Origin: an uncultured delta proteobacterium | GTDB taxonomy: Bacteria > Myxococcota_A > Polyangia > Polyangiales > B10-G4 | DNA length: 64,000 nt | NCBI GenBank assembly: GCA_963727445.1 | Contig: CAVSGI010000015.1 | Location: 128,001-192,000, forward strand | Direction of reading: 5' to 3' | Part shown: positions 54,773 to 63,208 of the stretch, piece after piece | Layout: each line of letters opens with the position of its first letter | Position numbering within the stretch: position 1 is the first letter of the stretch | The notes under the pieces: model-generated | Database searches by the model: none | Told to the model about the DNA's origin: nothing | What the model saw: the letters and a program-made list of their open reading frames with translations, nothing else | Translations under genes and position numbers: made by a program

Positions 54773-55473
<701 letters not shown>

Positions 55474-55627
55474 CTGGCTGAACCTTGCACCCGCGTTGTT
55501 TCGACAGGTGTGACGCAGCGGGTGGCGGGGTGGCAACGGGTGACCCTCGCCAGATCATTGAGTTTCCGCACCCCGGCGCGGCTTCCTTTGCGCTTTCGGG
55601 GGGCTCGCGCTAGATCGTCCGCCCTCC

Positions 55628-56735
55628 ATGGCCCTCTCGAGTCGGAATCGTCGGTCTTCCAAACGTCGGCAAGTCGACACTCTTCAACGCGCTGTCTTCG
55701 GCCGCAGGCCGAGGCGGCGAACTACGCCTTCTGCACCATCGAGCCCAACGTGGGCGTGGTGCCGGTGCCCGACCCGCGCTTCGACGCGCTGGTGCAGCAG
55801 TACACGCCGAAGAAGGTGGTGCCCGCCACGGTGGAGTTCGTGGACATCGCGGGGCTCGTCAAAGGCGCGTCGAAGGGCGAGGGCAAAGGCAACGCCTTCT
55901 TGAGCCACATCCGCGACGTCGACGCGATCGCGCACGTGGTGCGGTGCTTCGAGGACGACAACATCGTGCACGTCGATGGGCGCGTGGACCCCGCGGCGGA
56001 CATCGAGACCATCGAGACCGAGCTGATCCTCAAGGATCTGGAGACGGTGCAGAAGCGCCTCGATCGCGCGCGGCGCGCGGCGAAGGGACAGGACCCGCTC
56101 GAGAAGAAGGCGGTGGTGGTCTGCGAGGCGCTCGAGAAGATCCTCGACGGCGGCGAGCTGGCGCGGCATCTACGAGCCGAACGACGTGGACGAGGCGAGC
56201 ATCGTCCGCGACATGTTCCTGCTGACGCGCAAGCCGATCTTCTACGTGGCGAACGTCTCCGAGGAGGACGCCGCGTCACCCGACGACAACGAGCGCGTGA
56301 AGGCGGTCCGGGCGATCGGCGAACGGCGCGGTGCGCCGGTGGTCACCATCTGCGCCGCGATCGAAGCGGAGATCATGCAGCTCGCGCCGGAGGAGCGCGG
56401 CGACTTCCTCGAGTCGGTGGGGCTCGAGCGAGCCCGGGCTGAACGAGGTGATCCGCACCGGCTACCGGATGCTGAACCTGATCACCTATTTCACGGCGGG
56501 CGAGCCGGAGGTGCACGCGTGGACGATCGTCGACGGCACGAAGGCGCCCCAGGCAGCCGGCAAGATCCACACGGACTTCGAGCGCGGATTCATCAAGGCC
56601 GAGGTCATCCACTGGAAGGACCTGATCGACCTCGGCAGCGAGTCCGCCGTCCGCAGCGCCGGCAAGCTGGGCATGGAAGGCAAGGAGTACGTCGTCAAAG
56701 ACGGCGACGTCATGCACTTCCGATTCAACGTGTAG
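55628..56735 (+). CDS. ychF: Redox-regulated ATPase YchF, four apparent +1 frameshifts (~55637, ~55703, ~56167, ~56430)
   Basis: [78 protein letters not shown]. Confidence 0.93.
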
Positions 56736-57040: not shown

Positions 57041-57700
57041 TCATCCAGCCGATGCAGCTGATTTGAGGTCGCTCATGTATCGACTGAAGCTCGGACAACG
57101 CTTCGCTAACACCTCGAGGTCACACTCCGAAACGATCCGAAGGCGAGTCTCCGCGTGATCCAGCTCCTCTTCGCTGAGGGCGTTGGCCAGCCTCTTCTTG
57201 GCTTCGCCACGCTTGAGGGTCTCGGGCTTGCTCGTGCCTCGCCCAAGAGACGACACGATCTCCCCGAGACATTCCCGGTCGGCCAGAAGCCAGGACTCGA
57301 ACTCCTGAACGGAGACGGCCAACACGACTTGGAGGAGAAGCGTCTCGCGGATGTCGTCCAATAGTTTTCGACGGCCGCGATCGCCATCCTGATCGATCAT
57401 CACGATTGCCAGGTGTGGTTGAAGCCGGGGATTTGCCCACGTGAGGAGCTGGCGCAGGCGAGCGGGTTTGTGGAGGTCACTTCCCACTGGCAGCCGGCCT
57501 CGCAAGCGAGCAGGGGAGTCGAACCGGACGGCATCGACATCCAGCGCGGCCAACGCCCGCCGCGTGAGGATGTGCGCCGGGCCTAGCATGCTTTCCTTCA
57601 GCGGGCTTCCCGTTGCAGGAAGGCGGGTTTGGTTCCCACGCGTTTCGCCGGGTCCCTCGGCGTACAGAACGATCCGGATTTCCTCAGCCTGGGACACCAC
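57041..57700 (-). CDS. DUF4276/TOPRIM-like protein
   Basis: IVLYAEG, VMIDQDG, AVSVQEFESWLLAD, CPSF; overlaps the ATPase gene. Confidence 0.7.
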   Translation of the reverse strand: MVSQAEEIRIVLYAEGPGETRGNQTRLPATGSPLKESMLGPAHILTRRALAALDVDAVRFDSPARLRGRLPVGSDLHKPARLRQLLTWANPRLQPHLAIVMIDQDGDRGRRKLLDDIRETLLLQVVLAVSVQEFESWLLADRECLGEIVSSLGRGTSKPETLKRGEAKKRLANALSEEELDHAETRLRIVSECDLEVLAKRCPSFSRYMSDLKSAASAG

Positions 57701-58598
57701 CGGCAGTACCGGACATCCAAAGGCTGCTCAGCGACTCCTGGTGCGCTTCATACGCTTGCTTCCAGTTTTCTGAGTCGACGTCTGCGGCCTCGATGGCAAC
57801 AGAACCGTCTGTTTCGTTTCTGGTCAAGAAGCGCACCTCGGAGGGATCCAGATGGTCCAAGAGCTCACCAGATTGCGTCGCGATCAGGATCTGAATGGGC
57901 CGAGGTCCCGTCTCGCCTGACGAAACGCCGCGCAGGAACTCGACGATCTCCCCCAACAAGAATGGGTGGAGTCCGTGCTCGGGCTCTTCGATTGCTACGA
58001 GGTCTAGTGGAAACGGGAGATGCTGAATCACGAGCAAAGCCAGCACGAGGAGCGTTCCATCCGAAACGTCGCTCGGCTCGTACCAAAGACGCTCATCCCA
58101 TCTGTCTTGAAAGACGAAACGGTGCTGCCCCGTGCCCTGGGGCCTCAGCGTTACGTCATTGACCACGGGAACCAGCTGCGAAAGCGACTGGGCGATCTCC
58201 TCTTGTGTCCTCCGCGGGAGGGTTCCGAAGACATTCGCCAGGTTGTGTCCGTTCGACGACAGGAGCTTGGCTTCCTGCAGCTGAATCGGTTGGCGAAGCA
58301 CACGGGTGTCGAGGTGGAGGTAGAGACCGCCTGGCCTGGCGCTACCCTTCTGGCCTCCGTTGGCGATTTGAATGGTCTTGGGTGCGTCCTTGCCAGACTC
58401 CAGCCATCCGATCGTGCACTTCGCTTGTGGCTCGTGGCGCCACACGCTCATTTGGTTGGCCACATGTTGTCCAGCGGCAGCCTTGAGCAACGAGCTCTTC
58501 CCGCTGGCATTCGGCCCCACGAAAGCCGTGAGGGGACCGAGGTCCACTTCCGCCTCACGAAAACAGCGGTAGTTCTGCAGCTCCAGTCGCTCCAGCAC
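57684..58598 (-). CDS. ABC-superfamily (AAA_21-like) ATPase
   Basis: LELQNYRCF, GPNASGKS, SDGT signature, VAIEEPEHGLHP, IATQS. Confidence 0.9.
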   Translation of the reverse strand: MLERLELQNYRCFREAEVDLGPLTAFVGPNASGKSSLLKAAAGQHVANQMSVWRHEPQAKCTIGWLESGKDAPKTIQIANGGQKGSARPGGLYLHLDTRVLRQPIQLQEAKLLSSNGHNLANVFGTLPRRTQEEIAQSLSQLVPVVNDVTLRPQGTGQHRFVFQDRWDERLWYEPSDVSDGTLLVLALLVIQHLPFPLDLVAIEEPEHGLHPFLLGEIVEFLRGVSSGETGPRPIQILIATQSGELLDHLDPSEVRFLTRNETDGSVAIEAADVDSENWKQAYEAHQESLSSLWMSGTAGGVPG

Positions 58599-58676: not shown

Positions 58677-60644
58677 TCAAGCCCGGATGCGCTTGCGGGG
58701 GACGTCGATGTTTTCTTCGCGCTCGGTCTCGGCGCGGCGGACGCGGAGTTGAACGGTGGTGCCTTCGGGGCCCCGGATGTGGGCGAAGGTTCCGGAGAAG
58801 CCGAGCTCGGTGGCGGGGAGGCCATCGACGGCGAGGATGACGTCGCCCGGGACGAGCCCCGCTTGGTCGGCGCCTCCGCCCTCGACGACGCGGCCGATGA
58901 TCAACCCCTCGTCGTGGGCGCTCAGCACGGCGCCGATACCGACCAGCTCGGTGCCCGGCTCCTCGCCCTCTTCGGTCGACGTGAGATCGATGCTCACAAA
59001 GGACGTCGCTCCCGTCGTCGCGACCCACGAGATCAGGCGGCCGTGATGATCCTGCGCGGCGGCGAAGAGGTTCTGCAGACCCGGCGGAACGCCGGTCAAA
59101 GTGAAGTGGCCATCCTCGCCGGTCACGGCGCTGGCGAAGAGCGGGACCGCGCTGCTCCCGCCGTCGCCGAGGCTCTCCTCGAGTGAGACGCGGGCGTTCG
59201 CGAGCGGCGGGCCGTCTTCGCCAGAGACCACGACACCCTCGACCGTCCCACCCCGTCCGAGAGCGATCTCGACGTCGGTCGGCGCGCCCCCCTCCGCGAG
59301 CACGGGACGCGGCTCGCTCGCGGCGTAACCGTAGGCCGTGGCCTGGACCAGATAGCTCCCCGCGGCCAGCCCGTGCACCGTGAATCCACCGTCGGCGGCG
59401 AAGGTCGTCTCCGTGGCGATCACCTCGCGCGCCAGCGGCCCGGTCTCGCGTAGCACCACGACCGTCGACGACGCGAGGGGCTCGCCGCTCTCCTCGTCGA
59501 TCACCTTCCCGGTCAAGAGCGCCTCCGGCCCGAGGGTGAGGGTGACGTCTCGTGCCGGCGCCTCCGCGTTCACGCGCGCCGTCGCGTAGTCTGGCGCGCC
59601 GGCGGTGACCAGATGAGGGCCGACGTCGACGCCTTCGATCTCGAAACGCCCGTCGTCGTCCGTCGTCGCCTCGCCGATGGGATGCAGCGCTGCCGAGGGC
59701 TCTGCGGCGTTGTCGGGTCGCGGCACCGCACGCACCGTGACCTCGGGCATGGGCGTCCCATCGTCGGTGAGGACCTGCCCGCTGATGCGCGCGGCGACCA
59801 TGCCCGGTTGCGCCTCGCCGGAGAGCGTGATGCGCAGCTGGTACGAGGCCTGCGCCCCGAAGTCGACGCGCGCACGGCCGCGACCGGCTTCCGGATGGCG
59901 CGCCTCGAGGAGCGCCCCGTCGGCGGCGTGGAAAGTGAAGGTCCCGTCGGGGCCGCTCTCCCAGGCATTGTCGCCCGGCGGCATGGAGGCGCGCTCGGCG
60001 TCGGCCTCCGAGAGCAACCGGATGCTCGCCCCCGCGACCGGCTCGCCCTCCGCGTTCACGACCAGGCCGGAGTAGGGACGATCCGGAACCAGATAGACGA
60101 CCACCCCCTCCACGCGCTCCCAGCGCTCGGGCCGGAAGGTGAGGGGGCTCGTGTCCCACTCGGGCGCGTAGGGGCGATAGCCGTCTGCGGTGACGATGGA
60201 GAGGGTGTGCTCGGCCGCCGCGCCGGCGGAGTAGTGGAACGCGCCCTCCTCGTCGGTGTGAACGGCAACGGTGCGACCCGCCGCCGCGAAGGTGAGCTCG
60301 GCGCCGGCGATGGGCGCGTTCGTCGACCACGAAAGGACGTGCCCCGCGATGACGCCGAAGCGCGCGGAGCGGTCGGTCCGCGCCGTCGCCGGGCTGAGGA
60401 TGAGTGGCGCACGATCCGTATGTTCGCGAGGGTTCGTGCCCGCGTTCTGTGGTTGTGCCTCCGACGACTCCTCTTCCGGGGGCGGCGGCTCGGCGCCACC
60501 GGGAACGACCTCGGCGCCCATGCCCGCGCCCTCCACCGACTCCTCGATCGTGTGGCTGCGATAGTAGAGAAATCCGAGCGCCATCACGACGGCGAGGAGC
60601 ACGGTGGCGGAGACGGCGCGCTTGCAATCGGGTGGCTCGCTCAT
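58677..60644 (-). CDS. Membrane-anchored carboxypeptidase-regulatory-like repeat protein with C-terminal PDZ
   Basis: Repeated G.V....G.P....V / TD..G.F units; GIGAVL..GGGADQAGLVPGDVILAVDG..IRGPEGT. Confidence 0.85.
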   Translation of the reverse strand: MSEPPDCKRAVSATVLLAVVMALGFLYYRSHTIEESVEGAGMGAEVVPGGAEPPPPEEESSEAQPQNAGTNPREHTDRAPLILSPATARTDRSARFGVIAGHVLSWSTNAPIAGAELTFAAAGRTVAVHTDEEGAFHYSAGAAAEHTLSIVTADGYRPYAPEWDTSPLTFRPERWERVEGVVVYLVPDRPYSGLVVNAEGEPVAGASIRLLSEADAERASMPPGDNAWESGPDGTFTFHAADGALLEARHPEAGRGRARVDFGAQASYQLRITLSGEAQPGMVAARISGQVLTDDGTPMPEVTVRAVPRPDNAAEPSAALHPIGEATTDDDGRFEIEGVDVGPHLVTAGAPDYATARVNAEAPARDVTLTLGPEALLTGKVIDEESGEPLASSTVVVLRETGPLAREVIATETTFAADGGFTVHGLAAGSYLVQATAYGYAASEPRPVLAEGGAPTDVEIALGRGGTVEGVVVSGEDGPPLANARVSLEESLGDGGSSAVPLFASAVTGEDGHFTLTGVPPGLQNLFAAAQDHHGRLISWVATTGATSFVSIDLTSTEEGEEPGTELVGIGAVLSAHDEGLIIGRVVEGGGADQAGLVPGDVILAVDGLPATELGFSGTFAHIRGPEGTTVQLRVRRAETEREENIDVPRKRIRA

Positions 60645-61159
60645 GTCTTCGGCACCCGCAGCTTCACGCGCACGTCGGGCTTGATCTTCAGCGTCCCCAG
60701 CATCGCCTTGTAGGGCTCGATGCCGAAGTCGGGTTGGTGCACGACGACTTCCGCCTCCCAGGTGTCGCCAGCGTCGCGAACGCGCGCGCGGATCTCGCGC
60801 GTGCGGCCGTGCAGCGTGAGGTCACCGACGACGCGCAGCGCATCGCCCTCCTCCTCGACGCGCGTCGAGCGGAACTCAATCTTCGAAAACCTCCGGGTGT
60901 CGAGGACGTCTTTTCGGATCGTGTCTTCGATCTTGCGAAAATCCGATCCGCTGAGCGCGCCCGGGTTGTCGCGCCCCGACGCGAGGCAGGTCTCGACCAC
61001 GAGCGAGGTCGGGTCGAAGGTGGCGACGACGGACCGCTCCGCCGGTGCCCCCTCGCCTTCGATCTTCAGGTCGAAACGATCGACGCGAATGCGCAGGTCG
61101 TGGGCGACCTTGGAGAGAAGGCCCTCCTTTTCGGTGAAGACGTGACAGGTCGCGGACAT
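60641..61159 (-). CDS. YceI-family lipid/polyisoprenoid-binding protein
   Basis: GLLSKVAHDL, VLDTRRFSKIEFRST, GDLTLHGRTR, DFGIEPY. Confidence 0.85.
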   Translation of the reverse strand: MSATCHVFTEKEGLLSKVAHDLRIRVDRFDLKIEGEGAPAERSVVATFDPTSLVVETCLASGRDNPGALSGSDFRKIEDTIRKDVLDTRRFSKIEFRSTRVEEEGDALRVVGDLTLHGRTREIRARVRDAGDTWEAEVVVHQPDFGIEPYKAMLGTLKIKPDVRVKLRVPKT

Positions 61160-61236: not shown

Positions 61237-61274
61237 AAAAAAAGGAGGGCGGCGATCGCAGATCGCAGCCCTCC
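61237..61274 (-). terminator. Intrinsic terminator
   Basis: Minus strand GGAGGGC-U-GCGAUC / UGC / GAUCGC-C-GCCCUCC followed by U7. Confidence 0.85.
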
Positions 61275-61664
61275 TTCGTGATTGCTGGCCTCTCGAATCC
61301 GCCTGCGGGAAGCCTCGCGGCACTCCCGGCAGCGGCTGAGGGAGGTCAGGGAGCTTAGCTCGCTACCACCCCCATCGAGAGGCCAACGATACTGTGTTCA
61401 TTCATGTGCAACTTGCTCCCCCGGCTTTCGCCGGCACCCAGGGACACACCGGCCTCGAAGCTGATGCCGGGCCACGATCTGGGCGTTCCGTCTAGGGGAT
61501 CCACTTCGGCGCGGGCGGACGAACGGGCTGAGCCGTGAAGTCGCGCTCGCGGTGCGGATCCCGCAGTCAAAGTGGCAGGATTCCCAGAGGGAATTCGAAC
61601 CATTCCGGGGCTATTGCCCATCCGCCACATATCAGACGCTCCCCGAGCCGAGACCCGGTGAACC
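61237..61664 (-). ncRNA. Candidate large structured non-coding RNA (~430 nt), class unrecognised
   Basis: Bounded by promoter and terminator; about ten nested helices; GAAA and GCGA tetraloops and G-U pairs that work only on the minus strand; no credible protein gene. Confidence 0.6.
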
Positions 61665-61669
61665 ATTTG

Positions 61670-61698
61670 AGGGTAAGGCCGAGGAAGCGAGTCGCCAA
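61670..61698 (-). promoter_or_regulatory. Sigma70-type promoter for the candidate ncRNA
   Basis: TTGGCG (61698-61693), 17-bp spacer, TACCCT (61675-61670). Confidence 0.6.
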
Positions 61699-61783
61699 GC
61701 ATTCGGAGAATTTTTTCTAGACCGAAGCCGGATCCAGAGACGTCTGGGCCCTCACCGGATCGAGAGATTTCTTGGAGGGCTCG

Positions 61784-63208
61784 ATGGAAAAGACTGCTGC
61801 GAAGAGCGTGCTGATCGCGCTCGTTTCACTCATGGCCGCCTGTGGCGGCGCCTCGACGACCGAGGTCCAGGACCCGGGCGTCGTCTCCCTCTCGGGCACC
61901 CTGGGCAACACCTTCGTTCCGGCCGGCGAAAACGGTGAGGTCCTCGCGCGGGTTCGCGTCTCGACCCGCGCGCTGGACGGCAGCGCCCGACCCCCGATCA
62001 ACCTGGCGCTCGTCGTCGACACCTCGGGCTCGATGGCGGGAGAGCCGATCGAAGACGCGCGCGAGGCATCACTCGCGATCCTGGATCTCCTGCGCGAGGG
62101 CGATCGCCTGAGCGTCGTCGCGTTCCACAGCACGACCGAGGTGCTCCTTTCGTCGACGGTGATCGAGGACAACCTGGACGAGCTCCGCGAGGACATCGGT
62201 CGGATGGAGGCGCAGGGGACCACCGACATGGCGGGCGGCCTCCAGGCGGGGCTCACCGAGCTGATGTCGCACTACGAACCGAACGGTGTGAACCGCCTGG
62301 TGCTTCTTGGCGACGGCGTGCCCAACGACGAGGCGGGCATCGTGGCGATGGCCCAGGCGTCGGGCGAGCGCGGCATGAGCGTCACCGCCATCGGGCTCGG
62401 GCTCGACTACAACGAGACGCTCATGGGCGACATCGCCCAGGTCAGCGGCGGGCAGTTCCACTACGTCGAGGAGTCCGAGCAGGTGGCTTCGCTCTTCCGT
62501 GACGAGGTCATTCGCATGCAGCGCGTGTCGGGGCGCAACGCCGTGGTGCGGCTTCAGCCGGGCCCGGGCGTGACGATCCAGAGCGTCGTCGGGCAGAACG
62601 TGCAGAACCTCGGGGCCTACGTGGAGGTGCACCTCGGCGATCTGCACGAGGGCGAGCACCGTGACCTGATGGTGCGCGCGACGGTGGAAGGCCGCCGCCC
62701 GGGCGCGACGGTCGAGCTGATGGACGTCCACCTCGGCTTCGACGACGCGGTGATGGAAGGCGGCCGTCTCGAGCGGCGCGTGTTCCTGGGCGCGAAGAGC
62801 ACCGACGACGTCGAGGAGCTGGCGAGCGGCCGCAACACGGACGTCGAGCGCGAGGCGGCCCGGATGCAGGCGGCGGCGGTGACCATTCAGGCGGTGCGCA
62901 TGACCCGCGAGGGCGAGCTCCAGGCGGCGCGGGCGATGCTCGAGCGCGCCGAGCAGGACGCGCGCAACTTCGTCGACGAGGAGAGCGATGGCGACGAGGA
63001 CTTCGCGGCGCAAATCGAGACGATGAGCGCCTTTCGGCAGTCGCTCGGCGCGCCCAGCACCGGCACCGCCGCGGCGGGCGCCAGCGACGATTACGACGAG
63101 CCCGAAGCCGACGTGAGCGAGCCCTCTGCGCCGCCCATGCCCGCCGTCGACCGCGCGCGCATCCAGCGCGAGGTGCACAGCGAGAGCCTGGACGCACTCG
63201 GCTACTGA
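61784..63208 (+). CDS. von Willebrand factor A domain lipoprotein (YfbK-like)
   Basis: GGAGG RBS; MAAC lipobox; NLALVVDTSGSM MIDAS; LLGDG; GLGLDYNE. Confidence 0.9.
   Translation: MEKTAAKSVLIALVSLMAACGGASTTEVQDPGVVSLSGTLGNTFVPAGENGEVLARVRVSTRALDGSARPPINLALVVDTSGSMAGEPIEDAREASLAILDLLREGDRLSVVAFHSTTEVLLSSTVIEDNLDELREDIGRMEAQGTTDMAGGLQAGLTELMSHYEPNGVNRLVLLGDGVPNDEAGIVAMAQASGERGMSVTAIGLGLDYNETLMGDIAQVSGGQFHYVEESEQVASLFRDEVIRMQRVSGRNAVVRLQPGPGVTIQSVVGQNVQNLGAYVEVHLGDLHEGEHRDLMVRATVEGRRPGATVELMDVHLGFDDAVMEGGRLERRVFLGAKSTDDVEELASGRNTDVEREAARMQAAAVTIQAVRMTREGELQAARAMLERAEQDARNFVDEESDGDEDFAAQIETMSAFRQSLGAPSTGTAAAGASDDYDEPEADVSEPSAPPMPAVDRARIQREVHSESLDALGY

What the first reader, a model, noticed from the sequence alone, without database searches (positions are those of the whole stretch)
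61237..61698. Candidate undescribed ~430-nt structured ncRNA with its own promoter and terminator
Seen in sequence (minus strand): TTGGCG-N17-TACCCT predicts +1 near 61664, and a 13-bp stem plus U7 terminator ends at 61237. Most of the interval pairs in two domains. The 5' domain has helix 61633-38/61489-94 enclosing (a) junction 61620-28/61572-81 with hairpins GGGC-AAUA-GCCC and GGAAU-GGUUCGA-AUUCC (T-loop-like) and (b) a long hairpin closed by 61554-62/61496-504. The 3' domain has 61472-77/61276-81 enclosing CCGGC..GCCGG, a GUGUGU/GCACAU helix carrying CCGGC-GAAA-GCCGG, and a 15/16-bp helix 61375-90/61281-96 holding GAGC-UAA-GCUC and a GCGA-capped arm. G-U pairs and GNRA loops favour the minus strand. 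Established: it lacks the RNase P, tmRNA, SRP and 6S hallmarks and the riboswitch cores I can recognise. Inference: a stand-alone large RNA of a new or lineage-specific class, or a complex attenuator leader of the yceI-PDZ operon starting ~80 nt past the terminator.
Basis: partly seen in the sequence, partly recalled or inferred. Interest (0 to 1): 0.88.

Follow-up and report, generated by a model that had tools for sequence, protein, structure and literature searches.

The report
Myxobacterial structured RNA with mini-ORF
A previously uncatalogued, single-copy RNA gene found across a large group of myxobacteria folds into a conserved scaffold and carries a tiny reading frame whose peptide sequence drifts freely, which suggests the RNA recruits a ribosome as part of its own mechanism rather than to make a protein.

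Summary
The RNA is real but not simply non-coding. It has no Rfam match and is not tmRNA, RNase P, SRP or 6S, which lie elsewhere in this genome. Covariance models found it, one copy each, in 118 Myxococcota genomes (Polyangiales, other orders of the class, one family of another class). Its helices covary strongly. Metatranscriptome contigs from three studies cover the RNA and not the flanking genes. The peptide shows no purifying selection (dN/dS 1.3). A second SD-like hexamer sits 7 nt before the last codon; 29 independent metagenome hits confirmed the ORF (29 of 29) and this hexamer (23 of 29). Neighbours and orientation vary and the terminator is not switchable, so it is not a yceI attenuator. 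Best reading (inferred): a stand-alone translated RNA in which a ribosome, held at the stop codon by the second SD, opens a long helix and so ties the RNA's state to translation. Target and function are untested.

The parts
61670..61698 (-). sigma70-type promoter candidate (TTGGCG-N17-TACCCT); +1 inferred near 61664
   Evidence: similar -35/N17/TAnnnT spacing seen by eye in G001, G023, G005; TAnnnT within 60 nt upstream in 46 of 70 homologues vs 26% of shuffles; not found by the strict scan
61237..61664 (-). whole RNA gene (about 428 nt here; median about 330 nt among 61 homologues)
   Evidence: RNA-library contigs cover 61395-61649 only
61572..61628 (-). 5' four-way junction: P1 (61628-21/61580-72), P2 61619-61608, P3 61607-61596 (most conserved hairpin, NUNN loop), AA, P4 61593-61581
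   Evidence: (94.5% of cells paired, 15 of 19 pairs with two-sided changes in 52 sequences)
61496..61562 (-). P5, hairpin of variable length
61421..61488 (-). invariant GAA (61488-86), helix P6 (61485-79/61441-35) with a variable inner arm, stacked hairpin P7 (61434-61421)
   Evidence: 93% paired, 9 of 12 pairs with two-sided changes in 44 sequences; five P6 pairs among the top six MI-APC pairs
61416..61422 (-). Shine-Dalgarno site directly 3' of P7
61355..61405 (-). mini-ORF, ATG...TAA, 16 codons (MNEHSIVGLSMGVVAS)
61368..61373 (-). second SD-like hexamer (GGGGGU here, GGAGGU consensus), 7 nt before the last sense codon
61284..61387 (-). long helix P8 (61387-75/61296-84) and P9 (second SD paired with the C-rich arm 61347-38), burying the ORF's 3' half when no ribosome is present
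   Evidence: median pairing probability of the hexamer 0.81; 79 of 113
61237..61276 (-). intrinsic terminator, not switchable in folding models
60641..61159 (-). yceI-like gene (neighbour, not part of the element)
   Evidence: PF04264
61772..63208 (+). VWA-domain gene (divergent neighbour)
   Evidence: PF00092

Best explanation
A stand-alone, single-copy, translated structured RNA of a large part of the Myxococcota. SHOWN: a conserved covarying scaffold (four-way junction, GAA-P6-P7), own terminator, variable gene context, a conserved SD + start + 12-24-codon frame + stop, no protein-level constraint on the peptide, and an SD-like hexamer kept 4, 7 or 10 nt before the last codon. INFERRED: the ORF is translated; what matters is the ribosome's passage, not the peptide. 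The ribosome opens P8/P9. At the stop codon the second SD lies in the same register as an initiation SD and pairs with 16S rRNA, which slows release of the post-termination ribosome. The RNA therefore switches between a closed ribosome-free form and an open ribosome-bound form with the C-rich 3' arm free. Its activity or half-life then follows initiation, termination and recycling, and it acts in trans. The 5' scaffold is probably bound by a protein or by the ribosome itself. Step odds: stand-alone translated RNA 0.9; function at RNA level rather than through the peptide 0.65; ribosome held at the stop as the working step 0.4.
For: Distribution and single copy. Covariation. ORF: 112 of 113 scored are 12-24 codons, starts ATG 95 / GTG 18, stops TAG 55 / TGA 39 / TAA 19; the start-to-hexamer distance takes 16 lengths and 94 of 103 sequences keep one frame. 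dN/dS 1.29 over 29 disjoint pairs. Hexamer: anti-SD pairing of -6 kcal/mol or better in 91 of 101 vs 10.7% of 1500 own-genome gene ends, peak at 7 nt. Its Glu codon is GAG 86 times and never GAA, while Glu codons earlier in the same ORFs are GAA 20, GAG 6; the preceding codon ends in G across many amino acids. Independent set chosen without the stop or hexamer: 29 of 29 ORFs of 14-17 codons, 23 of 29 with the hexamer, 22 at exactly 7 nt. In vitro, an SD upstream of the stop slows mRNA release 50-fold (PMC5737721, passages). Transcript.
Against: No ribosome profiling, proteomics or mutant data exist; translation is inferred from conservation alone. The hexamer could be conserved only as one strand of P9 or as a protein-binding site. 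The homologues share one origin, so the counts are not independent events. An N-terminal M-H/D-S-T-x-G pattern recurs across distant families, which fits a working peptide. dN/dS rests on 166 differences in close pairs. 10 of 113 lack a strong hexamer, some with G-AAG-G instead. The C-rich 3' arm is not conserved in sequence (an anti-SD-like pentamer in 69 of 113 vs 17 of 106 controls). Hfq and CsrA were not found in this 86%-complete genome, so a usual sRNA chaperone is not evident.
Confidence: 0.45

Rival explanations
1. Mini-gene for a functional 12-24-residue peptide (signal or regulator); the 5' scaffold is a regulatory leader (protein- or ligand-binding) that sets its translation.
For: Strong SD and an A/U-rich start region; a recurring MHST-x-G-(L/F/S)-x-x-E pattern across families; own promoter and terminator.
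Against: dN/dS 1.29. Length varies from 12 to 24. Conserved positions are conserved as nucleotides: Ser3 is AGT 42 vs AGC 4 in a genome using AGT:AGC 2545:31762; codon 2 varies among His/Asp/Asn/Gln/Lys; the hexamer occurs in a second frame in 9 of 103. No tailoring enzyme or exporter is a constant neighbour.
Confidence: 0.2
2. Dual-function sRNA of the RNAIII/SR1/Pos19 type: a base-pairing or protein-titrating RNA in which the ORF only protects or stabilises the transcript and the second GGAGG is just a helix strand.
For: Stand-alone transcript with a small ORF; C-rich stretches after the stop are enriched (69 of 113 vs 17 of 106). Pos19 regulates without its ORF being translated (PMC5036791 abstract).
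Against: A helix strand may covary freely, yet the hexamer keeps its SD sequence and its distance to the stop. No conserved single-stranded seed is evident. Hfq and CsrA not found in G000.
Confidence: 0.25
3. Ribosome-mediated transcription attenuator (leader peptide) for yceI or another downstream gene.
For: Leader-like anatomy: SD, short ORF, stop-proximal SD (reported as common in attenuator leaders), terminator. yceI lies 78 nt downstream here and also follows the RNA in f2, f5, f23, f24 and one f9 genome.
Against: Mean terminator probability is 0.92 free, 0.91 with a ribosome at the stop and 0.93 with the ORF blocked, in 94 loci. The downstream gene differs between families and is often convergent. 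The element is inverted relative to yceI in f22. No run of regulatory codons.
Confidence: 0.05
4. A divergent copy of a known housekeeping RNA or a motif already described outside Rfam.
For: Single-copy, core-like distribution. The supplement of one motif survey could not be read.
Against: tmRNA, 6S, RNase P and SRP are present elsewhere in G000. No Rfam match on the RNA in the window or in 21 homologue loci. The main texts of three motif surveys do not mention these taxa.
Confidence: 0.05

Closest known systems
Ribosome-mediated attenuator leaders (trp/his/ilv type; uORF candidates such as ilvB-II and fthC in PMC11109978)
   Same: SD, short ORF, stop-proximal SD-like sequence, ORF overlapping a helix, downstream intrinsic terminator.
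   Different: No antiterminator, no fixed downstream gene, often convergent context, no regulatory codon run, and a large covarying scaffold upstream of the SD.
Dual-function sRNAs (Pos19, PMC5036791 abstract; SR1, PMC8501984 listing; RNAIII and SgrS recalled)
   Same: Stand-alone 200-500-nt transcript with a small ORF and its own terminator.
   Different: No sequence match (Rfam). The frame is conserved while the peptide drifts, a second SD is fixed relative to the stop, and a multi-helix junction is conserved across orders.
tmRNA (RF00023)
   Same: Structured RNA of similar size holding a short reading frame; the stop often lies near a hairpin tip.
   Different: The ORF has its own SD and AUG/GUG; no tRNA-like domain or CCA end; ARAGORN finds nothing in the window and finds the true tmRNA on contig C19.
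Large orphan bacterial ncRNAs (raiA motif, OLE, GOLLD, ROOL; recalled, raiA also in the listing)
   Same: Highly structured, stand-alone, function open.
   Different: No Rfam match; those are not known to carry an initiated mini-ORF (recalled).
Pxr (RF01812), the known myxobacterial sRNA
   Same: Myxobacterial trans-encoded RNA.
   Different: 109 model positions, described for Myxococcales (PMC8538405 passage); no match here (the control rang nowhere, so it is weak).

Membership tests
Any Rfam 15 family | covariance-model score at gathering threshold or significant E-value | tested here: not met
   only chance-level hits (sR23 E 1.1, CcsR1 E 0.21 on a terminator) and an unrelated neighbouring tRNA
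tmRNA | tRNA-like domain with CCA end and a resume codon without SD/AUG | tested here: not met
   the ORF has SD and ATG/GTG
RNase P / SRP / 6S | family model match; being the genome's copy | tested here: not met
   true copies on other contigs
Ribosome-mediated attenuator | short leader ORF with SD and stop | tested here: met
Ribosome-mediated attenuator | antiterminator competing with the terminator according to ribosome position | tested here: not met
   (equilibrium folding with blocked segments; 5-8 of 94 below 0.5, mostly mis-picked hairpins)
Ribosome-mediated attenuator / riboswitch | consistent co-oriented downstream gene | tested here: not met
Type I toxin-antitoxin toxin mRNA | hydrophobic membrane peptide | tested here: not met
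   median GRAVY -0.55, maximum 0.82
CsrB/RsmZ-type sponge | CsrA in the host and many loop-exposed GGA motifs | tested here: not met
   no CsrA match in G000 (86% complete); GGA motifs lie in stems or the SD
Dual-function sRNA | stand-alone transcript with a small ORF | tested here: met
Dual-function sRNA | ORF translated in vivo | not testable with these tools
   needs ribosome profiling or a reporter fusion
Dual-function sRNA | base-pairing mRNA target or protein partner | not tested
   no target prediction run; Hfq not found
Mobile-element or phage RNA | multiple copies, or presence in phages or plasmids | tested here: not met
   one copy in G000; 0 and 2 viral pattern hits, both starts of long genes; only chance hits in phage and plasmid records

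The most novel reading that the evidence does not exclude
A new kind of ribosome-engaging RNA: a conserved scaffold plus a sequence-free mini-ORF and a stop-registered second SD, built to load a ribosome and hold it after termination. It would act as a sensor, store or regulator of ribosome recycling in myxobacteria (it often lies near ychF, a ribosome-binding ATPase), with no protein product and no cis-regulated gene.
Probability: 0.3. Interest if true: 0.92.

Novelty: new variant of a known kind. Interest (0 to 1): 0.8.

Why it matters
Large structured bacterial RNAs conserved across whole orders are rare, and the review passages read on myxobacteria name only Pxr and an M. xanthus survey. 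This one is near-core in many Polyangiales families and reaches other orders and a second class. It joins two features normally seen apart: a covarying multi-helix scaffold and a reading frame kept for something other than its peptide. It gives a natural, directly testable case of an SD placed to act at termination, an effect measured in vitro on model mRNAs. Gene callers miss both the RNA and the ORF, so it is likely unannotated wherever it occurs.

Tried and rejected
Rfam at gathering and E-value thresholds: nothing on the RNA. The GTDB-wide 5' pattern scan gave 78 matches; 15 scored 34 bits or more with the 5' model and 14 of these had the downstream part (the other is cut by a contig end). 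The other 63, including Acidobacteriaceae and Proteobacteria look-alikes, were treated as chance; five checked directly lacked the downstream part. The 5' models missed families f11, f16 and f17 because the junction is reduced there; the 3' model found them, so the early 'absent' reading was wrong. Weak model hits dropped for lack of the other half: L170, L171, L174, L180, L181, L186, L187, L189-L191, L195, L222-L224, L305-L307; L114 and L121 are cut by contig ends. Forty genomes of other families of the phylum gave no true hit; these are samples, not proof of absence. The idea that the P3 loop (UGG) pairs with tRNA CCA ends or with the CCACC linker was rejected: only the second loop base is conserved and no such covariation appears. 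Reinitiation or programmed read-through at the stop was rejected: all three stops are used and no start codon is conserved nearby. Run X4 held none of the RNA, and no contig covered its 3' 160 nt, which proves nothing. Earlier findings of this scan: nothing alike; one unrelated micro-ORF note. Five literature searches plus one search showed no description of this RNA; subscription journals and the supplement of PMC11109978 were not visible.

Full report
Observation. The interval lies between a divergent VWA-domain gene (61772-63208, +) and a yceI-like gene (60641-61159, -). The promoter-like hexamers, the terminator and the five helices given by coordinates are in the sequence as described, although the strict consensus scan reports neither promoter nor terminator. 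The minus strand folds at z -4.2 against dinucleotide shuffles and -3.1 without the terminator; the plus strand scores equally. Rfam 15 gives nothing at gathering threshold for the whole window, nothing better than E 1.1 on the region and nothing on the RNA in 7 and 14 homologue loci. The genome's tmRNA, 6S, RNase P and SRP RNAs are on other contigs, and there is no second copy of this element.

Distribution. BLAST matched 9 of 61 genomes including the own; seven of the others are true homologues. A 5' pattern matched 17 of 401 genomes of the order, with 0 control matches. In the GTDB-wide scan, 15 of 78 pattern matches were true; their record titles read Polyangiales (9), Myxococcales (3), Myxococcota or Deltaproteobacteria (3). 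A covariance model of the 5' domain matched 64 of 151 genomes of the order (the tally includes one unpublished genome that was not used further). A model of the 3' core reached families the 5' models had missed: 27 of 40 chosen genomes at E up to 0.5, including 9 of 10 of the largest family; 37 of 151 class-wide; 26 of 151 phylum-wide. Outside the class only family f75 gave true copies; 40 genomes of other families gave 3 weak, false hits. After dropping weak hits that lacked the other half and two cut by contig ends, 118 genomes remain, one copy each (101, 17). Nothing true was found in viral contigs, phages or plasmids.

Structure. The 5' domain is a four-way junction. In 52 sequences 94.5% of cells pair and 15 of 19 pairs show two-sided changes, against 33-49% pairing when partners are slid (that alignment was fitted to the model, but the plain alignment of 16 sequences gave 97% and 7 of 19). 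Structure-blind mutual information ranks the P3, P1, P4, P6 and terminator pairs at the top. After a variable hairpin comes an invariant GAA, helix P6 and hairpin P7: 93% paired, 9 of 12 pairs with two-sided changes in 44 sequences. Enforcing these helices costs the window RNA only 0.6 kcal/mol. In f17, f11 and other orders the junction is reduced or diverged, while GAA-P6-P7 persists.

The mini-ORF. Directly after P7 is an SD, then ATG or GTG, then a short frame. All 60 homologues scored had one; the window was added by hand because its SD variant escaped the pattern. Of 113 scored, 112 are 12-24 codons long and one is 41; five further f38 copies were left out by the pattern, four of which are listed with 13-codon ORFs and the fifth was read by eye. 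All three stop codons are used. The distance from start to the 3' motif takes 16 different lengths, and 94 of 103 sequences keep one frame. The peptides are hydrophilic (median GRAVY -0.55) and show dN/dS 1.29 over 29 disjoint close pairs. Conserved positions look nucleotide-driven: Ser3 is AGT 42 times and AGC 4 times, the reverse of genome usage. Against this, an MHST-x-G start recurs in distant families, so a peptide role is not excluded.

The second SD. A hexamer pairing with the anti-SD motif (recalled, 7 nt) at -6 kcal/mol or better lies 3-11 nt before the last sense codon in 91 of 101 copies, against 10.7% of 1500 long genes of the own genome; the peak is at 7 nt, the register of an initiation SD when the last codon is in the P site. 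Its Glu codon is always GAG (86 of 86), while other Glu codons in these ORFs are mostly GAA. The 3' model includes this region and so favours it. An independent check used 29 metagenome contigs selected only on P7, SD and the first four codons: all 29 have a 14-17-codon ORF (23 distinct), 23 have the hexamer, 22 at exactly 7 nt, and 25 have GAA-P6. Without a ribosome the hexamer is mostly paired (median 0.81), and the ORF's 3' part pairs with the downstream arm in 79 of 113.

Cis or trans. Neighbours include yceI, VWA, ychF, hrcA, a metallo-beta-lactamase-fold phosphodiesterase, an ABA4-like gene and others. A loose neighbourhood persists in some families (ychF within 8 kb in 14 of 41 wide loci), but order and orientation are shuffled, and in four f22 genomes yceI is upstream and divergent. 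A rough heuristic calls the next gene co-oriented in 54 and convergent in 40 of 113 loci (19 unscored). A terminator was found in 94 of 101, and its probability does not change when ribosome-covered segments are blocked (0.92, 0.91, 0.93). This is not an attenuator or riboswitch for a downstream gene.

Expression. Three metatranscriptome runs from three studies hold contigs at 99% identity or better (one other letter each) covering 61395-61649, 61421-61647 and 61454-61645, with no cover of yceI and only short unrelated pieces on the VWA gene; two runs also hold a related variant of the same RNA; a fourth run holds none. Contigs cannot show strand, ends or level, and DNA carry-over is not formally excluded, but the cover is confined to the predicted RNA.

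Mechanism. I commit to a stand-alone translated RNA whose ORF serves to bring a ribosome, open P8/P9 and hold it at the stop through the second SD (confidence 0.45 for the whole chain). The physical premise is published: an upstream SD raised mRNA affinity 7-fold and slowed mRNA release 50-fold in post-termination complexes, and such sites are reported near the stops of attenuator leaders (PMC5737721, passages read). From memory, SD-induced pausing during elongation has been disputed; the passages read of PMC6377232 only confirm that ribosomes pair with internal SD-like motifs. What the open form does is not shown. Hfq and CsrA were not found in this 86%-complete genome. Rivals: dual-function sRNA with a passive ORF (0.25), functional peptide with a regulatory leader (0.2), attenuator (0.05), known RNA (0.05).

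Novelty. Term searches in the main texts of PMC11109978, PMC8632094 and PMC5737381 found no mention of these taxa; passages of the review PMC8538405 name Pxr and an M. xanthus survey; for Pos19 only the abstract was read. The supplement of PMC11109978 could not be read, and a motif listed only there or in subscription journals cannot be excluded. It is a new RNA family that works like a translated small RNA; if the ribosome-holding step is confirmed it would be a new kind.

Noticed in passing
window 57041-58598 (-): AbiEii-like AAA ATPase (PF13304) plus a DUF4276 gene, inserted between ychF and the PDZ/carboxypeptidase-repeat gene; looks like a type IV toxin-antitoxin or defence pair.
   Followed up: no
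window about 55600-56735 (+): The ychF homologue appears split over two frames (ORFs 55411-56442 and 56331-56735; two pieces): a frameshift, either a sequencing error or real.
   Followed up: no
L262, L273, L282 and related wide loci: A cNMP-binding Crp-like gene, a class II cAMP phosphodiesterase-like gene, an OmpR-type two-component pair and a RimO-like radical SAM gene recur within 8 kb of the RNA in 10-13 of 41 loci, in shuffled order.
   Followed up: partly
L235 (G026): The only copy with a long frame (41 codons); it may have lost its stop or be degenerating.
   Followed up: no
L248, L249, L250, L253, L255 (family f17): A conserved ~209-aa protein with no Pfam match lies next to the RNA in five f17 genomes, downstream in four.
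   Followed up: no
L293, L294, L295, L297, L299, L303 (family f38), inner arm of P6: A strongly conserved segment of about 30 nt in the otherwise variable P6 arm, suggesting a lineage-specific subdomain.
   Followed up: no
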